A stretch of 4,073 bases of DNA from a virus (lineage: Duplodnaviria; Heunggongvirae; Uroviricota; Caudoviricetes): positions 1-4,073 of IMG/VR virus record IMGVR_UViG_2695420380_000014, one strand, 5' to 3'. The notes under the pieces were generated by a model. The model was given only the letters and a program-made list of their open reading frames with translations, did no database searches and was not told where the DNA came from. Made by a program: the position numbers and the translations under genes. Positions 196 to 4,073 of the stretch are shown here, piece after piece; the first letter of the stretch is position 1, and the number at the start of each line of letters is the position of its first letter.

Positions 196-387
196 TTAAA
201 GACCTGCCGGGATTTCGTTATTATCATGGTGAATAACTTTATCGACCGGATAACAGTCACCGGGAATTTTCTGTTTCGCTGCGGCAGTCATACATTCTTT
301 CATTGAGCTGTATACGCCAGTAACCATGTCAACCGGTTCACCGGAAACAAGAAAAACCGTCAGAACGAGTGCAAATACTGTATTCAT
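196..387 (-). CDS. Small hypothetical protein (63 aa) with hydrophobic N-terminal segment (signal peptide or membrane anchor) and two Cys
   Basis: ATG at 385-387 preceded by AAGGA with 8-nt spacing. The start overlaps the stop of the upstream ORF in an ATGA arrangement. Translation MNTVFALVLTVFLVSGEPVD... has an uncharged hydrophobic N-terminus, then a polar domain with Cys in KECM and GDCY. Stop TAA at 196-198. The frame is also open back to ATG 441, but that start has a poorly spaced SD. Confidence 0.5.
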   Translation of the reverse strand: MNTVFALVLTVFLVSGEPVDMVTGVYSSMKECMTAAAKQKIPGDCYPVDKVIHHDNNEIPAGL

Positions 388-572
388 TGTGCACATCCTT
401 TTGGCATCAGACGTAAACGAGCCAGCATTGAAACAATGCATATTTTATTTAATGACTCCCGTTCGTGTTTTCTCTTGTTAATGGCATCTTCAGTAAATAC
501 CGTGTTACTGATAGTGACACCAATTTCAAAACAACCTTCAGACGTATTAACGTTTGGTAATAACGTCTCCAT
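384..572 (-). CDS. Small hypothetical protein (62 aa), hydrophilic and basic, first gene of a two-gene coupled pair
   Basis: ATG 570-572 preceded by GAGGA about 8 nt upstream. It lies 10 nt downstream of the stop of the Rha 3' fragment. Stop TGA 384-386 overlaps the next ATG. No recognisable domain by eye. Confidence 0.45.
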   Translation of the reverse strand: METLLPNVNTSEGCFEIGVTISNTVFTEDAINKRKHERESLNKICIVSMLARLRLMPKGCAQ

Positions 573-582
573 TATTGCGTCC

Positions 583-678
583 TCAACAATGAATTTTGAG
601 TAATTGTTCCACAGTCATATTTTTAATTGCGCCCCGGTTAACAAGAGTCCATCCCTGTTCTTCCAGATAAAACCGGAA
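583..678 (-). pseudogene. Orphaned 3' end (31 codons) of a Rha-family phage regulatory gene, cut off from its 5' part by the IS1/IS3 block
   Basis: Minus-strand translation FRFYLEEQGWTLVNRGAIKNMTVEQLLKIHC* is in frame with, and nearly identical to, the C-terminal region of the Rha-like CDS at 2333-2917. The frame is broken at the IS1 left end (679/680). Confidence 0.7.
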
Positions 679-679
679 A
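599..679. repeat. 81-bp direct repeat, copy 1 (abuts IS1 left end)
   Basis: Read base by base against 2382-2462: identical except position 660 (c) versus 2443 (t). The next base (680 and 2463) is g in both copies, so the repeat could be counted as 82 bp. Confidence 0.9.
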
Positions 680-702
680 GGTGATGCTGCCAACTTACTG
701 AT
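680..702. repeat. IS1 left terminal inverted repeat (IRL)
   Basis: GGTGATGCTGCCAACTTACTGAT at the left boundary of the element; imperfect inverted match to 1425-1447. Confidence 0.9.
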
Positions 703-1447: not shown

Positions 1448-2336
1448 ATTTTGCACAGGAGTCGCTGAAAAATACGCGTTAATCGAACAATGGCGACAAC
1501 AATTTCCCATTGAAGCGATGTGTCAGGTATTTGGTGTATCCAGGAGCGGTTATTACAACTGGGTACAGCATGAACCCTCAGACAGAAAACAAAGTGATGA
1601 GCGGCTAAAACTGGAGATTAAGGTGGCACATATCCGCACTCGCGAAACATATGGAACCCGGCGGCTCCAGACGGAGCTGGCAGAGAATGGCATCATCGTT
1701 GGTCGTGACCGACTGGCACGTCTTCGTAAGGAGCTAAGGCTACGCTGTAAGCAGAAACGCAAGTTCAGAGCGACTACGAACTCGAACCACAATCTGCCAG
1801 TTGCGCCAAATCTGCTGAACCAGACGTTCGCTCCTACAGCACCAAATCAGGTCTGGGTGGCGGACCTGACGTATGTTGCCACACAGGAGGGATGGTTGTA
1901 CCTCGCTGGCATCAAAGATGTTTATACGTGCGAAATTGTCGGCTACGCCATGGGAGAGCGCATGACAAAAGAGCTGACAGGTAAAGCCCTGTTTATGGCG
2001 CTCAGGAGCCAGCGCCCACCTGCCGGGCTAATCCACCACTCTGATCGAGGTTCACAGTACTGCGCATACGATTACCGGGTCATACAGGAGCAGTCTGGTC
2101 TGAAAACATCAATGTCGCGTAAAGGTAACTGTTACGACAACGCTCCGATGGAAAGCTTCTGGGGAACGCTGAAAAATGAGAGCCTGAGCCACTATCGTTT
2201 TAATAACCGGGATGAAGCCATCTCAGTAATACGGGAATACATTGAGATTTTCTACAATCGTCAGCGTCGTCACTCTCGTCTGGGGAATATCTCCCCGGCA
2301 GCCTTCAGGGAAAAATATCATCAGATGGCTGCTTAA
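1448..2336 (+). pseudogene. IS3-family transposase OrfB (DDE integrase catalytic domain), 5'-truncated, lacking orfA and the frameshift window
   Basis: Translation from 1448 (...AEKYALIEQWRQQFPIEAMCQVFGVSRSGYYNW...) parallels the N-terminus of IS3 InsF as recalled ([32 protein letters not shown]). DDE motifs are visible: VWVADLTY, HSDRGSQY, ESFWGTLKNE. The only in-window start for this frame is a TTG at 1434, which lies inside the IS1 IRR. Stop TAA at 2334-2336. Confidence 0.85.
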
Positions 2337-2379
2337 AAAAAGAACAAATGGTAGTGTCCGCTATTGCCAGTACACCTCA
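1448..2379 (+). mobile_element. IS3-family insertion sequence remnant (right part only: orfB plus right end); left end and orfA replaced by IS1
   Basis: Begins immediately after the IS1 IRR. Encodes an rve-type DDE transposase frame. After the orfB stop there are about 40 bp ending in ...CCTCA (2375-2379), consistent with the CA-3' terminus typical of IS3-family ends. The exact right boundary (2377-2381) is uncertain. No IS3-type left end or orfA is present in the window. Confidence 0.8.
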
Positions 2380-2917
2380 AAAGTAATTGTTCCACAGTCA
2401 TATTTTTAATTGCGCCCCGGTTAACAAGAGTCCATCCCTGTTTTTCCAGATAAAACCGGAAAGTCTCCAGGGTACAGACCAGTGCGCCATCAGGAACGGT
2501 TTCGGTGAATTCGACATTGCCGAATTTGTCGAAGTGAACAACCAGAGTGCGACCATCACCCGGAATCATCTTGTCAGCAGGTGGGGTGTTATTCTGGCGC
2601 AGTTCGGCCTCCATGCGGTCGAACTCAGCAATGTAGGCTTCTTTGAATGCAGCGGCTTTTTTGCCAGTGAAGCCCATAACCAGGAAAACGAAGCCGTTTT
2701 TGGTGATTTGGTACATTGGGAGTTTGCGCCCGATTGAGTCGGTGTATTCGCTCGCTTCAAAATTGAGGGCAGTAAATTTATCTGAGCATTCAATATTTGC
2801 GATGGCACGTAACACATTGTCGTGTCGTTTGTGGAAGAACTCTGCAACCGCAACAGACGTAGTGACAGCGCGACCGTTTTCTACGGTTACACAAGGGTGA
2901 GAAAGGGTAGTAGCCAT
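2333..2917 (-). CDS. Rha-family phage regulatory protein (Phage_pRha-like N-terminal domain), with its native C-terminal 4 residues replaced by a 15-residue tail read from the IS3-family end
   Basis: ATG 2915-2917 preceded by GGAGG with about 8-nt spacing. The N-terminal region ...CVTVENGRAVTTSVAVAEFFHKRHDNVLRAIANI... carries the FxKRHDNVLR motif I associate with Rha-family regulators. The frame runs into the IS end (...MTVEQLL|LRCTGNSGHYHLFFF*). The frame is also open upstream to ATG 3211 (see findings). Confidence 0.75.
   Translation of the reverse strand: MATTLSHPCVTVENGRAVTTSVAVAEFFHKRHDNVLRAIANIECSDKFTALNFEASEYTDSIGRKLPMYQITKNGFVFLVMGFTGKKAAAFKEAYIAEFDRMEAELRQNNTPPADKMIPGDGRTLVVHFDKFGNVEFTETVPDGALVCTLETFRFYLEKQGWTLVNRGAIKNMTVEQLLLRCTGNSGHYHLFFF
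2382..2462. repeat. 81-bp direct repeat, copy 2 (abuts IS3-family right end; part of the Rha-like CDS)
   Basis: Identical to 599-679 except one base (2443 t versus 660 c). Confidence 0.9.
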
Positions 2918-3081
2918 GATGGCAGCCTCCGCGATGAATTTGATTAACTCACCACCGGAGGTAGCAATCTCATGGGTGGTGAGACGTACAGGGTTGCTAC
3001 AACCGGTCATCACGGAACCCGGCCAGTCTTGCGACTGCCCCGCACGCCCCACCATAATTTGAATGTGGCTGTGCATTACGC

Positions 3082-3106
3082 ATAAAAAAACCGCCTGAGC
3101 GCGGTT
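3082..3106 (-). terminator. Intrinsic terminator-like hairpin on the minus strand, upstream of the Rha start
   Basis: Minus-strand sequence aaccgc-gctcag-gcggtt (6-bp stem, 6-nt loop) followed by seven T (plus-strand A-run 3084-3090). It lies inside the stop-free region between ATG 3211 and ATG 2917. Confidence 0.5.
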
Positions 3107-3275
3107 ATGCGCCGTGAATGACTTCGGGGTAGCAATCCCGGCACCCGTTTTATGAGGTGCAGGTGCACTATAATTCCACCCGTTCTGGTTTTCAATAGCT
3201 ACATTCAACATTTTCTCTTTCCTTTCATCACCGAAGTGAACTTTGTTGATGCGGTGCCTGGTGCCTCCAGGTGAC

Positions 3276-3296
3276 GTTAACCAGTTAACAATTAAC
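3276..3296. promoter_or_regulatory. Cluster of three (G)TTAAC motifs; candidate operator or protein-binding site in the divergent intergenic region
   Basis: GTTAAC-ca-GTTAAC-aa-TTAAC, with repeats starting at 3276, 3284 and 3292. Each GTTAAC is self-palindromic. It lies between the minus-strand Rha region and the plus-strand small gene. Confidence 0.3.
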
Positions 3297-3612
3297 GCCG
3301 GAATAAGGGATTTTCCTTACTGTTTTAACTGTTCCGCGTGCGCTGAGCCGCATTCACCGCATCACAAAATTCACTTTAAAAAGGGCGGACATCAGCCAGC
3401 AATTAAACCGATGCCGCCAACTGGTACTTCACACAGCAATGTCGTTATTTACAACCGGAGGCGCACTCCCACCATTTAAATTTAACAGACAAGACCGACT
3501 CTTTATGGATACCGGAAATGCGCCTTCGTGTTGTGCCCGGTTTTATTTCACCACCTCCGGGCTTTGGTGGTATCTTTACTGAAGTTCTCACACAACCAGT
3601 AAGGAAATGAAT

Positions 3613-3903
3613 ATGCCAACGTATCTCGCCAGAGTAGAACTATATAATGCTGAGCCAGAGGATTACGAAGGGCTTCATAAATATATGCTCTCACTAGGAT
3701 TCAGGAGAACGATCCCCCATGGAGATGGTTCGTATAATCAACTCCCGGACGGAACTTATGTTTCCGAAAAGGGCGGTGATATTTATCAAATTCGCAGCCA
3801 GATATCTGACTATGCAGACCGACTATCCAGGTATCGCGCGTCTGTTTTTGTTTGCGAATTCAGTCAATGCGCATGGTATTTATACCCCGCCAAGACCCGG
3901 TGA
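3613..3903 (+). CDS. Small hypothetical protein (96 aa), tentatively GhoS/DUF2622-like
   Basis: AAGGA at 3601-3605, 7 nt before ATG 3613 (the ATG at 3607 is too close to the SD). Translation MPTYLARVELYNAEPEDYEGLHKYMLSLGFRRTIPHGDGSYNQLPDGTYV... shows by eye a residue pattern (TY...Y....L...M....F...I....G...QL) resembling E. coli GhoS as I recall it. This is a memory-based resemblance only. Stop TGA 3901-3903. Confidence 0.5.
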   Translation: MPTYLARVELYNAEPEDYEGLHKYMLSLGFRRTIPHGDGSYNQLPDGTYVSEKGGDIYQIRSQISDYADRLSRYRASVFVCEFSQCAWYLYPAKTR

Positions 3904-4073
3904 ATATCCTGTACGGCCTTCTGCTTTGTAGAAGGCTTCTTCGCTATCATAATCGCCAGATTCCAGCGCTTCTTTAGCCAGCCAGATGCGTGCCCCAGTG
4001 CCTGCATTTGGCTCCAGTTGCTGGAGGCGTTTTGCATCTTCTAAATAGCTGCGCTTAATACCGCTACACTTTT
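3880..4073 (-). CDS. 3' end (64 codons) of a hypothetical protein gene that extends beyond the right edge of the window
   Basis: The minus-strand frame is open from the window edge to TAA at 3880-3882: ...KCSGIKRSYLEDAKRLQQLEPNAGTGARIWLAKEALESGDYDSEEAFYKAEGRTGYSPGLGGV*. It overlaps the 3' end of the plus-strand small gene by 24 bp. No family recognised. Confidence 0.45.
   Translation of the reverse strand, partial: KCSGIKRSYLEDAKRLQQLEPNAGTGARIWLAKEALESGDYDSEEAFYKAEGRTGYSPGLGGV

What the first reader, a model, noticed from the sequence alone, without database searches (positions are those of the whole stretch)
3880..4073. Unrecognised convergent gene running off the right edge
A minus-strand frame is open for at least 64 codons from the window edge to a stop at 3880-3882, and it overlaps the end of the GhoS-like gene. 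The acidic, Ala/Glu-rich C-terminus matches no family I recognise. Its identity may define the function of this neighbourhood, and a convergent overlap can allow antisense interference between the two genes.
Basis: seen in the sequence. Interest (0 to 1): 0.35.

Follow-up and report, generated by a model that had tools for sequence, protein, structure and literature searches.

The report
IS630-cut fragment of ymfJ-like prophage gene
The open frame at the right edge is the tail of a small prophage gene of unknown function (a relative of E. coli YmfJ) that an IS630 insertion sequence has cut in two, so it is an ordinary disrupted gene and not a new long gene.

Summary
A minus-strand frame is open for 63 codons to a TAA at 3882-3880, and it overlaps the end of the 98-aa plus-strand gene by 24 bp. 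It is not a long gene running off the edge. Window 3880-4043 holds codons 14-67 of a 67-codon gene that is intact in Rac-like prophages of E. coli and Salmonella Typhi CT18. The gene belongs to PHROG 30817. Its first ~44 residues are the N-terminal module of E. coli K-12 e14 protein YmfJ, whose function is unknown.

Window 4044-4073 is the terminal inverted repeat of IS630, inserted at its classic CTAG target with a TA duplication. The other junction occurs in four other contigs. The nine codons at the edge (KCSGIKRSY) are IS630 DNA read out of the transposase frame. In full IS630 copies that frame stops 62 nt further on.

The family is truly coding (pN/pS 0.22). It sits in the early-left operon between the repressor and kil. 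In 54 of 75 related loci it converges on a YmfI-like gene, and the 3' ends overlap by 4-63 bp in 52 of these. The 98-aa neighbour has a GhoS-like fold. The finding is ordinary and of low interest. The only open question is what the YmfJ/YmfI pair does.

The parts
3880..4043 (-). 3' fragment (codons 14-67 plus the TAA stop) of a 67-codon ymfJ-like early-left prophage gene. The TA at 4042-4043 is the IS630 target dinucleotide.
   Evidence: About 99% identical to the intact genes in L001 and L003. Residues 10-63 match phrog_30817 profile positions 14-67 of 67, E 3.7e-38. Closest relatives show 1 mismatch in 163 nt.
4044..4073 (-). Terminal inverted repeat at the transposase-distal 3' end of an IS630 element. 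It holds the last two transposase codons and the TAG stop (4072-4064, a different frame from the finding). The finding's frame reads it as KCSGIKRSY plus the first base of codon L14.
   Evidence: Window 4043-4073 is 31/31 identical to the ends of IS630-family elements in 203 E. coli records. It aligns with L002, L005 and L090. The 'KV*' matches the transposase C-terminus ...GLAKV*.
3607..3903 (+). Convergent partner gene. It encodes a 98-aa YmfI-like protein with a GhoS-like ferredoxin fold (phrog_8894).
   Evidence: phrog_8894 E 3.8e-38. NCBIfam YmfI_phage 52.8 bits, below the 140-bit cutoff. blastp to K-12 YmfI E 1e-8 to 1e-10. AF2 model pLDDT 88.6. Best PDB fold match is GhoS 2LLZ, E 4.5e-4, TM 0.63.
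3880..3903 (.). 24-bp overlap of the 3' ends of the two convergent genes.
   Evidence: The same 24 bp is present in 17 of 20 loci of the 67-aa subfamily. Other subfamilies overlap by 4, 18, 30, 42 or 63 bp. No terminator or inverted repeat lies in or near the overlap.
3388..3415 (-). Terminator-like hairpin with a T-run. It is the first such site downstream for leftward transcription, which would therefore run antisense across the whole 98-aa gene.
   Evidence: Consensus scan only. It is not evidence of function.

Best explanation
The frame is the promoter-distal 54 codons of a 67-codon gene from the early-left (pL-type) operon of a Rac/e14-like lambdoid prophage. The gene was split between codons 13 and 14 when IS630 inserted into a CTAG site and duplicated the TA.

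Shown:
- The window ends 30 nt into the IS630 terminal repeat.
- A near-identical contig stops 1 nt after the window edge, as assemblies typically do at IS copies.
- The start codon and residues 1-13 are missing from this side. These residues include invariant I10 and A11 and near-invariant M1, L6, H8, L12 and L13.
- The nine codons at the edge are IS630 DNA read out of the transposase frame.
- The intact family is real coding sequence under purifying selection. It has a conserved ~44-residue two-helix N-terminal module shared with E. coli K-12 e14 YmfJ, followed by a variable tail.
- The family gene lies after the CI-like repressor and before kil/gam/exo.
- It usually converges on, and overlaps the 3' end of, a YmfI-like gene with a GhoS-like fold.

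Inferred:
- Here the fragment is a pseudogene, cut off from its promoter by the 1.15-kb IS.
- In intact phages the protein is made only after repressor cleavage. In K-12, e14 ymfJ is induced late in the SOS response and YmfJ protein was detected.
- I think the protein most likely acts as a small soluble helical-hairpin binder or regulator early in induction.
- Leftward transcription through the gene probably also runs antisense into the ymfI-like gene and silences it (an excludon).
- The biochemical target is unknown.
For: - The intact 67-aa gene is present in L001 and L003 at the same position, and identity breaks at window 4043.
- Window 4043-4073 is 100% identical to IS630 ends. The IS630 copy in L090 is 1153 bp long with a 343-aa transposase ending in KV*.
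- CTAG sits exactly at the break in 14 of 22 uninterrupted relatives, including the closest ones.
- The reciprocal junction (codons 1-13 + TA + the other IS630 end) occurs in four IMG/VR contigs, L087-L090.
- The CTAG/TA preference of IS630 is documented: Tenzen & Ohtsubo 1991, cited in PMC6811581 and PMC2170065.
- L027 (1 mismatch in 799 nt) ends 1 nt past the window edge.
- Splicing in full IS630 copies puts an in-frame stop at position 4135-4137.
- Family membership: phrog_30817; alignment with K-12 YmfJ; 108 representative clusters in 1.84 billion proteins; pN/pS 0.22.
- Operon position: L001, L003, e14, phage phiES15 and Stx phage 75/02.
- Expression: PMC11002266. Excludon listing: PMC12288877.
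- Partner conservation: 54 of 75 loci.
Against: - The source molecule cannot be followed past 4073. That the rest of IS630 and codons 1-13 lie beyond the edge in this genome is inferred from other contigs.
- In L090 the IS630 that carries junction A is followed by unrelated LRR-type sequence. At least one genome therefore has a rearrangement at this IS, not a simple insertion.
- No function has been shown for any family member.
- The structure model is only moderately confident (pLDDT 72; the tail is below 50) and has no structural neighbours.
- The excludon role comes from an RNA-seq-based list for K-12, not from a functional test, and nothing was measured for this locus.
Confidence: 0.9

Rival explanations
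1. An intact, longer gene of an unknown family continues beyond the right edge of the window.
For: The frame is open right up to the window edge.
Against: The last 30 nt are the IS630 inverted repeat. No homologue covers the first nine residues. The native gene has 67 codons. Full IS630 copies put an in-frame stop 62 nt past the edge.
Confidence: 0.02
2. The fragment is still expressed as an IS630-phage fusion protein. An ATG preceded by GGAGG lies inside the IS630 3' end, 10 nt beyond the window. It opens the same frame and would give a 67-aa hybrid, MGWQKCSGIKRSY + LEDAKRL..., translated from transposase read-through transcripts. Those transcripts would also run antisense into the ymfI-like gene.
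For: Splicing in the IS630 copies L005 and L002 gives this ORF. The same IS630 end in L090 carries CCCCGGAGGCAAACATGGGC and reads out of the element without a stop. The transposase gene and the fragment point the same way.
Against: The ATG lies outside the window and its presence is inferred from other copies. The hybrid lacks half of helix 1 and seven conserved positions (M1, L6, H8, I10, A11, L12, L13). Nothing shows that IS630 transcription reads out of the element. An open outward frame has a substantial chance probability.
Confidence: 0.06
3. The frame is a chance ORF, and the region matters only as the 3' UTR or antisense partner of the 98-aa gene.
For: A stop-free run of 63 codons has P about 0.04 by composition. 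Another 57-aa ORF exists in a second minus-strand frame.
Against: Protein-level conservation spans Escherichia, Salmonella, Hafnia, Serratia, Cronobacter, Aeromonas and Pectobacterium phages. pN/pS is 0.22 with pS 0.65. YmfJ protein was detected by proteomics (PMC11002266).
Confidence: 0.02

Closest known systems
YmfJ (b1144), an uncharacterised protein of E. coli K-12 cryptic prophage e14, and PHROG 30817/12693/2982/32391
   Same: The N-terminal ~44-residue module is the same (MNE..LKHVIALLLEDAKRLQQ.EPNAGTEARI..AK.AL). The gene sits leftward of a CI-like repressor. It converges on and overlaps a ymfI-type gene.
   Different: YmfJ has 102 aa and an unrelated C-terminal half, and overlaps ymfI by 63 bp. 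This subfamily has 67 aa with a short, probably disordered acidic/Gly tail and a 24-bp overlap. It follows a DUF1391 (ydaF-like) gene instead of following the repressor directly. The window copy is truncated at codon 14.
IS630 insertions at 5'-CTAG-3' in Shigella (for example fliC in S. sonnei, PMC6811581)
   Same: The terminal repeat is identical, the target is CTAG and TA is duplicated. The surrounding prophage also carries IS1 and IS600.
   Different: Only 30 nt of the element are in the window. The rest is inferred from other copies.
Convergent excludons ymfI-ymfJ and sieB-ydaF of E. coli K-12 (ExcludonFinder, PMC12288877)
   Same: The gene families and prophage position are the same: a rightward gene embedded against the leftward early operon, with overlapping 3' ends.
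   Different: No transcript data exist for this locus. Here the leftward promoter has been separated from the overlap by IS630.
GhoS/GhoT type V toxin-antitoxin system
   Same: GhoS (2LLZ) is the best structural match for the 98-aa neighbour. Many of its homologues are named DUF2622 or GhoS in databases.
   Different: The window protein gets no PF11080 hit. The small partner is a soluble, acidic helical hairpin on the opposite strand. It is not a hydrophobic GhoT-like membrane peptide lying downstream in the same operon.

Membership tests
YmfJ N-terminal module family (phrog_30817 and relatives) | Significant sequence match to the family profile | tested here: met
   phrog_30817 E 3.7e-38, with residues 10-63 matching profile positions 14-67 of 67. 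39 homologues found. Aligns with K-12 YmfJ.
YmfJ N-terminal module family (phrog_30817 and relatives) | Complete ~44-residue module with all invariant positions (I10 A11 L14 E15 D16 Q21 P25 N26 A27 G28 T29 A31 R32) and a start codon | tested here: not met
   Residues 1-13 are replaced by IS630-derived KCSGIKRSY. I10 and A11 and the ATG are absent. Positions from L14 onward are all retained. The window copy is therefore a truncated member.
YmfJ N-terminal module family (phrog_30817 and relatives) | Location in the early-left operon, downstream of a CI-like repressor and upstream of kil and the recombination genes | tested here: inconclusive
   Met in intact relatives. In the window the upstream side is IS630 and the sequence ends. 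The downstream side (Rha, DicB) is consistent.
YmfJ N-terminal module family (phrog_30817 and relatives) | Convergent YmfI-like partner with overlapping 3' ends | tested here: met
   24-bp overlap with the 98-aa gene. A partner is present in 54 of 75 related loci.
IS630 (window 4044-4073) | Terminal inverted repeat sequence | tested here: met
   31/31 identity to the ends of elements annotated as IS630 family transposase in 203 E. coli records. Aligns with L005 and L090.
IS630 (window 4044-4073) | Insertion at the TA of CTAG, with TA duplication | tested here: met
   Uninterrupted relatives read CTCC-TA-GAAGAT. The window has ...GCAGCTATT-TA-GAAGAT. Contigs L087-L090 have CTACTCC-TA-AATAGCTGCG. 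The target preference is taken from Tenzen & Ohtsubo 1991 as cited in PMC6811581.
IS630 (window 4044-4073) | Transposase gene of the Tc1/mariner-IS630 superfamily | not testable with these tools
   Only the last two codons and the stop (KV*) are in the window. The full 343-aa ORF is seen only in other copies. The near-identical contig ends 1 nt past the window.
GhoS/GhoT type V toxin-antitoxin (considered for the gene pair) | GhoS-type ferredoxin-like fold in the larger protein | tested here: met
   Foldseek best hit is 2LLZ GhoS, E 4.5e-4, probability 1.00, TM 0.63, using a model with pLDDT 88.6.
GhoS/GhoT type V toxin-antitoxin (considered for the gene pair) | Pfam PF11080 (GhoS) sequence match above threshold | tested here: not met
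   The window protein has no PF11080 hit at E<=1. Only 6 of 13 diverged homologues hit weakly, best E 0.0012.
GhoS/GhoT type V toxin-antitoxin (considered for the gene pair) | Small hydrophobic membrane toxin (GhoT) encoded downstream in the same operon | tested here: not met
   The small partner is on the opposite strand. It is charged and predicted to be a soluble two-helix hairpin. Neither protein hits PADLOC.
GhoS/GhoT type V toxin-antitoxin (considered for the gene pair) | Antitoxin cleaves the toxin mRNA | not testable with these tools
   This needs RNase assays.

The most novel reading that the evidence does not exclude
The conserved pairing of a YmfJ-module gene with a convergent, 3'-overlapping gene for a GhoS-fold (YmfI-like) protein may be an undescribed prophage switch module. 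In this reading, the GhoS-like putative RNase is made in the lysogen and destroys leaky early-left transcripts. After repressor cleavage, strong leftward transcription through ymfJ silences the RNase gene by antisense collision. YmfJ would be either the RNase's protein antagonist or the harmful product being kept in check, making the pair a type V-like toxin-antitoxin or commitment device. The window would then hold a copy of the module inactivated by IS630.
Probability: 0.1. Interest if true: 0.5.

Novelty: already known. Interest (0 to 1): 0.14.

Why it matters
For this window it matters little. The finding resolves into an annotation point: a small hypothetical prophage gene, split by IS630, in a prophage that also carries IS1 and IS600. 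Gene callers and readers should not extend this frame past the contig end.

The wider by-product is modest but usable. The YmfJ N-terminal module forms a compact phage family, mostly from enterobacteria, of 108 clusters. It is under purifying selection. It is placed directly after the immunity repressor and is usually locked tail-to-tail with a GhoS-fold gene. This gives a concrete, testable handle on two long-unannotated K-12 y-genes, ymfI and ymfJ.

Tried and rejected
- An exact 51-nt scan of genome contigs for the phage/IS630 junction found nothing. No complete E. coli genome carries this junction.
- Pfam, NCBIfam and PADLOC give no family for the small protein.
- A PDB profile search gave 0 hits. 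Foldseek against PDB gave 0 hits. BFVD gave only E>7. There is therefore no structural clue to function.
- I checked whether Rac YdaG is the K-12 counterpart. It is not, as the sequences are unrelated. The K-12 relative is e14 YmfJ.
- No terminator or inverted repeat lies in the overlap, and no sigma-70-like promoter was found in 3200-4073.
- A literature search for DUF2622, ymfI or GhoS-like found nothing on the E. coli proteins; the listed ymfI papers that name the gene concern the unrelated B. subtilis one.
- The PDB sequence search with the YmfI-like profile gave only noise. The GhoS link appears only at the fold level.
- An N-type antiterminator role was considered from the operon position and rejected on composition. 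The protein has no arginine-rich motif and a net negative charge. This is my own inference.

Full report
**Observation.** On the minus strand, window 4071-3883 translates without a stop into KCSGIKRSYLEDAKRLQQLEPNAGTGARIWLAKEALESGDYDSEEAFYKAEGRTGYSPGLGGV, followed by TAA at 3882-3880. The other two minus-strand frames contain stops. The plus-strand 98-aa ORF spans 3607-3903, so the two genes converge and share 24 bp (3880-3903). A 63-codon open run has only about a 4% chance probability at this composition, so whether it is a gene has to be decided by homology.

**What the DNA is.** Window 3323-4042/4043 is 97-99% identical to a stretch of Rac-like prophages in 17 complete E. coli genomes. In FDAARGOS_943 (L001) the order is RecE, YdaE, Rha, [98-aa gene], [this ORF], DUF1391 (ydaF-like), HTH repressor, Cro/CI-like, YdaT, and so on. 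The exact 98-aa protein is also encoded in Salmonella Typhi CT18 (L003). There a 67-aa gene is called on the opposite strand at the same place, overlapping it by 24 bp. That gene reads MNETELKHVIALLLEDAKRLQQLEPNAGTEARIWLAKEALESGDNDSEEAFYKAEGRAGYSPGLGGV. The native gene is thus complete at 67 codons. It starts 1 nt after the stop of the DUF1391 gene, behind an AGGTGAG Shine-Dalgarno-like sequence.

**Where the window departs from it.** Alignment with L001 and L003 shows identity up to ...GCATCTTCTA and then complete divergence. The divergent 31 nt (4043-4073) are 100% identical to the ends of elements annotated as IS630 family transposase in 203 E. coli records, including Nissle 1917. They align with the end of ISEc33 in L002. 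The IS630 transposase ends ...GLAKV*, and its last codons K-V-stop occupy window 4072-4064, in a different frame from the finding. The nine codons nearest the edge (KCSGIKRSY) are therefore IS630 inverted-repeat DNA read out of frame. Codon L14 (TTA, 4044-4042) is a hybrid of one IS base and the target TA.

**Insertion signature.**
- Fourteen of 22 uninterrupted relatives, including those with only 1 mismatch in 163 nt, read CTCC-TA-GAAGAT at the break. This is a CTAG site.
- The window reads ...GCGCAGCTATT-TA-GAAGAT.
- A scan of IMG/VR for the predicted reciprocal junction found four contigs (L087-L090) that read ATGAACGAGACAGAATTAAAACACGTTATCGCTCTACTCC-TA-AATAGCTGCGCGG. That is codons 1-13, the TA, and the other IS630 end.
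- Three of these contigs stop inside the IS.
- L090 contains the full 1153-bp element with a 343-aa transposase.
- IS630's preference for the TA of 5'-CTAG-3' is documented (Tenzen & Ohtsubo 1991, cited in PMC6811581 and PMC2170065).

**Can the sequence be extended?** Not in the source. An IMG/VR contig (L027, UViG_2690316286_000019) differs from the window by 1 base in 799, and it ends 1 nt beyond window position 4073. A database protein named 'hypothetical protein, partial [Shigella flexneri]' starts at exactly the same residue, LEDAKRL. Assemblies evidently break here because IS630 is repeated. I spliced two independent IS630 copies onto the window edge. In both, the finding's frame reaches an in-frame stop at position 4135-4137, 62 nt past the edge. 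The same splice reveals an ATG at position 4083, preceded by GGAGG, which would give a 67-aa IS630-phage fusion. I keep that as a low-probability rival, because it lacks half of helix 1 and nothing shows read-out transcription.

**Is the family real, and what is it?**
- The fragment hits phrog_30817 (unknown function) at E 3.7e-38. Residues 10-63 align to profile positions 14-67 of 67. It also hits three related PHROGs through the shared N-terminus.
- Pfam, NCBIfam and PADLOC have nothing.
- Homologues from Escherichia, Shigella, Salmonella, Citrobacter, Hafnia and Serratia share a ~44-residue N-terminal module followed by unrelated tails of 0-70 residues. So do Cronobacter, Aeromonas, Serratia, Pectobacterium and Stx phages.
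- The invariant positions are I10 A11 L14 E15 D16 Q21 P25 N26 A27 G28 T29 A31 R32.
- The K-12 member is e14 YmfJ (b1144, 102 aa), whose first 40 residues are this module. Rac YdaG is unrelated.
- An exhaustive profile search found only 108 representative clusters among 1.84 billion proteins, nearly all with the module at the N-terminus.
- Across 42 distinct module sequences, pN/pS is 0.22 with pS 0.65, which is clear purifying selection.
- AlphaFold2 predicts two helices (3-23 and 29-42) joined by the invariant EPNAGT loop. The 67-aa tail is disordered. Mean pLDDT is 72.
- No sequence or fold neighbour exists in PDB or BFVD.

**Genomic role.** In L001, L003, e14, the inducible Cronobacter phage phiES15 and Stx phage 75/02, the gene lies on the repressor's strand, after the repressor. 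A DUF1391 gene or another gene sometimes sits between them. The gene lies before kil, gam and the exonuclease genes, so it is an early-left operon gene. In K-12, ymfJ mRNA rises late in the SOS response (log2 fold change about 4.8) and YmfJ protein was detected. The authors attribute this to CI-like repressor control (PMC11002266).

**The neighbour and the overlap.**
- The 98-aa protein is phrog_8894. It scores below threshold on NCBIfam YmfI_phage, and blastp relates it to K-12 YmfI at E 1e-8 to 1e-10.
- It has no Pfam GhoS hit itself. Relatives are named DUF2622 or GhoS in databases, and 6 of 13 diverged homologues touch PF11080 weakly.
- A confident model (pLDDT 88.6, pTM 0.80) has GhoS (2LLZ) as its only significant PDB neighbour: E 4.5e-4, TM 0.63. 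'GhoS-like' is therefore right at the fold level.
- Among 75 IMG/VR loci with a family gene and enough downstream DNA, 54 have a convergent YmfI-like gene. In 52 of them the 3' ends overlap.
- The overlap depends on the subfamily: 4 bp (47-55-aa forms), 18 bp (58 aa), 24 bp (67 aa; 17 of 20 loci), 30 bp (91 aa), 42 bp (115 aa) and 63 bp (102-aa YmfJ, as in K-12).
- The tail-to-tail arrangement is conserved, while the 24-bp length is specific to this near-identical subfamily.
- There is no terminator or hairpin in the overlap. The first terminator-like site for leftward transcription lies at 3415-3388, beyond the whole 98-aa gene.
- ExcludonFinder lists ymfI-ymfJ, and the positionally equivalent sieB-ydaF, among convergent excludons in K-12 RNA-seq data (PMC12288877). 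It was not tested here. In this window IS630 has moved the leftward promoter 1.15 kb away.

**Mechanism and confidence.** I am confident (about 0.9) that the feature is an IS630-split, probably dead copy of a ymfJ-like early gene. For the intact family my best inference has low confidence. I think it is a small soluble helical-hairpin protein, made only after repressor inactivation, that binds a protein partner. Transcription through it probably also silences the GhoS-fold gene by antisense collision. A type V-like relationship with the GhoS-fold protein is the most novel reading not excluded. However, the pair fails two GhoST criteria: it has no membrane toxin, and it is not a co-directional operon.

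**Verdict.** The object is ordinary and already represented in databases as a hypothetical or partial protein. Interest is low.

Noticed in passing
window 2972-3059 (-) and 3084-3160 (-): There are Rfam matches above the gathering score to C4 antisense RNA (79 bits) and isrK Hfq-binding RNA (64.8 bits). Both lie inside or upstream of the long Ash+Rha ORF (2333-3211, -). This looks like a P1/Gifsy-type c4/isrK-antirepressor immunity region next to the finding.
   Followed up: no
window 599-680 and 2382-2463: An 82-bp direct repeat (99% identical) of the 3' end of the rha gene flanks a block made of IS1 (679-1447) and the 3' 932 bp of IS600 (1448-2379; 99.9% identical to IS600 in L001). This is far longer than a target duplication. 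It suggests recombination between two IS-carrying prophage copies.
   Followed up: partly
window 196-441 (-) and 384-572 (-): A DUF1482 protein and a full-length DicB cell-division inhibitor (Pfam E 2.5e-38) are encoded at the left end. The prophage therefore mixes Qin-like and Rac-like early genes.
   Followed up: no
beyond window 4073 (inferred); L090 reverse complement 5835-5970; L005 1531-1600: The 3' end of IS630 carries GGAGG-N5-ATG in a non-transposase frame, and this frame reads out through the terminal repeat without a stop. In L090 it continues in frame for ~45 codons from the ATG (~32 past the IS end) into a leucine-rich-repeat-like sequence. In this window it would fuse to the ymfJ fragment. 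This could be chance or an outward-reading fusion frame.
   Followed up: partly
L090 reverse complement 5876-6713: The IS630 copy that carries the ymfJ codon 1-13 junction is followed on its other side by unrelated AT-rich LRR-type sequence, not by the ymfJ 3' fragment. At least one genome therefore has an IS630-mediated rearrangement or a chimeric assembly at this site.
   Followed up: no
L089 reverse complement ~6700-6790: In this variant the DUF1391 gene (…GVFPNQDGTF) is fused directly to ymfJ codon 8 (HVIALL) just before the IS630 junction. This is an additional deletion in that isolate.
   Followed up: no
L001 6636-6761 (corresponds to window ~3958-4083): RefSeq/PGAP marks the intact 67-aa ORF of FDAARGOS_943 as a pseudogene 'missing C-terminus'. 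The likely reason is that its reference proteins are the longer YmfJ-type variants. The variable tails of this family mislead homology-based pseudogene calls.
   Followed up: partly
proteins P0247-P0258: In a minority of representatives the YmfJ module sits at the C-terminus of 95-140-aa proteins instead of at the N-terminus. These could be mis-called starts or real fusions.
   Followed up: no
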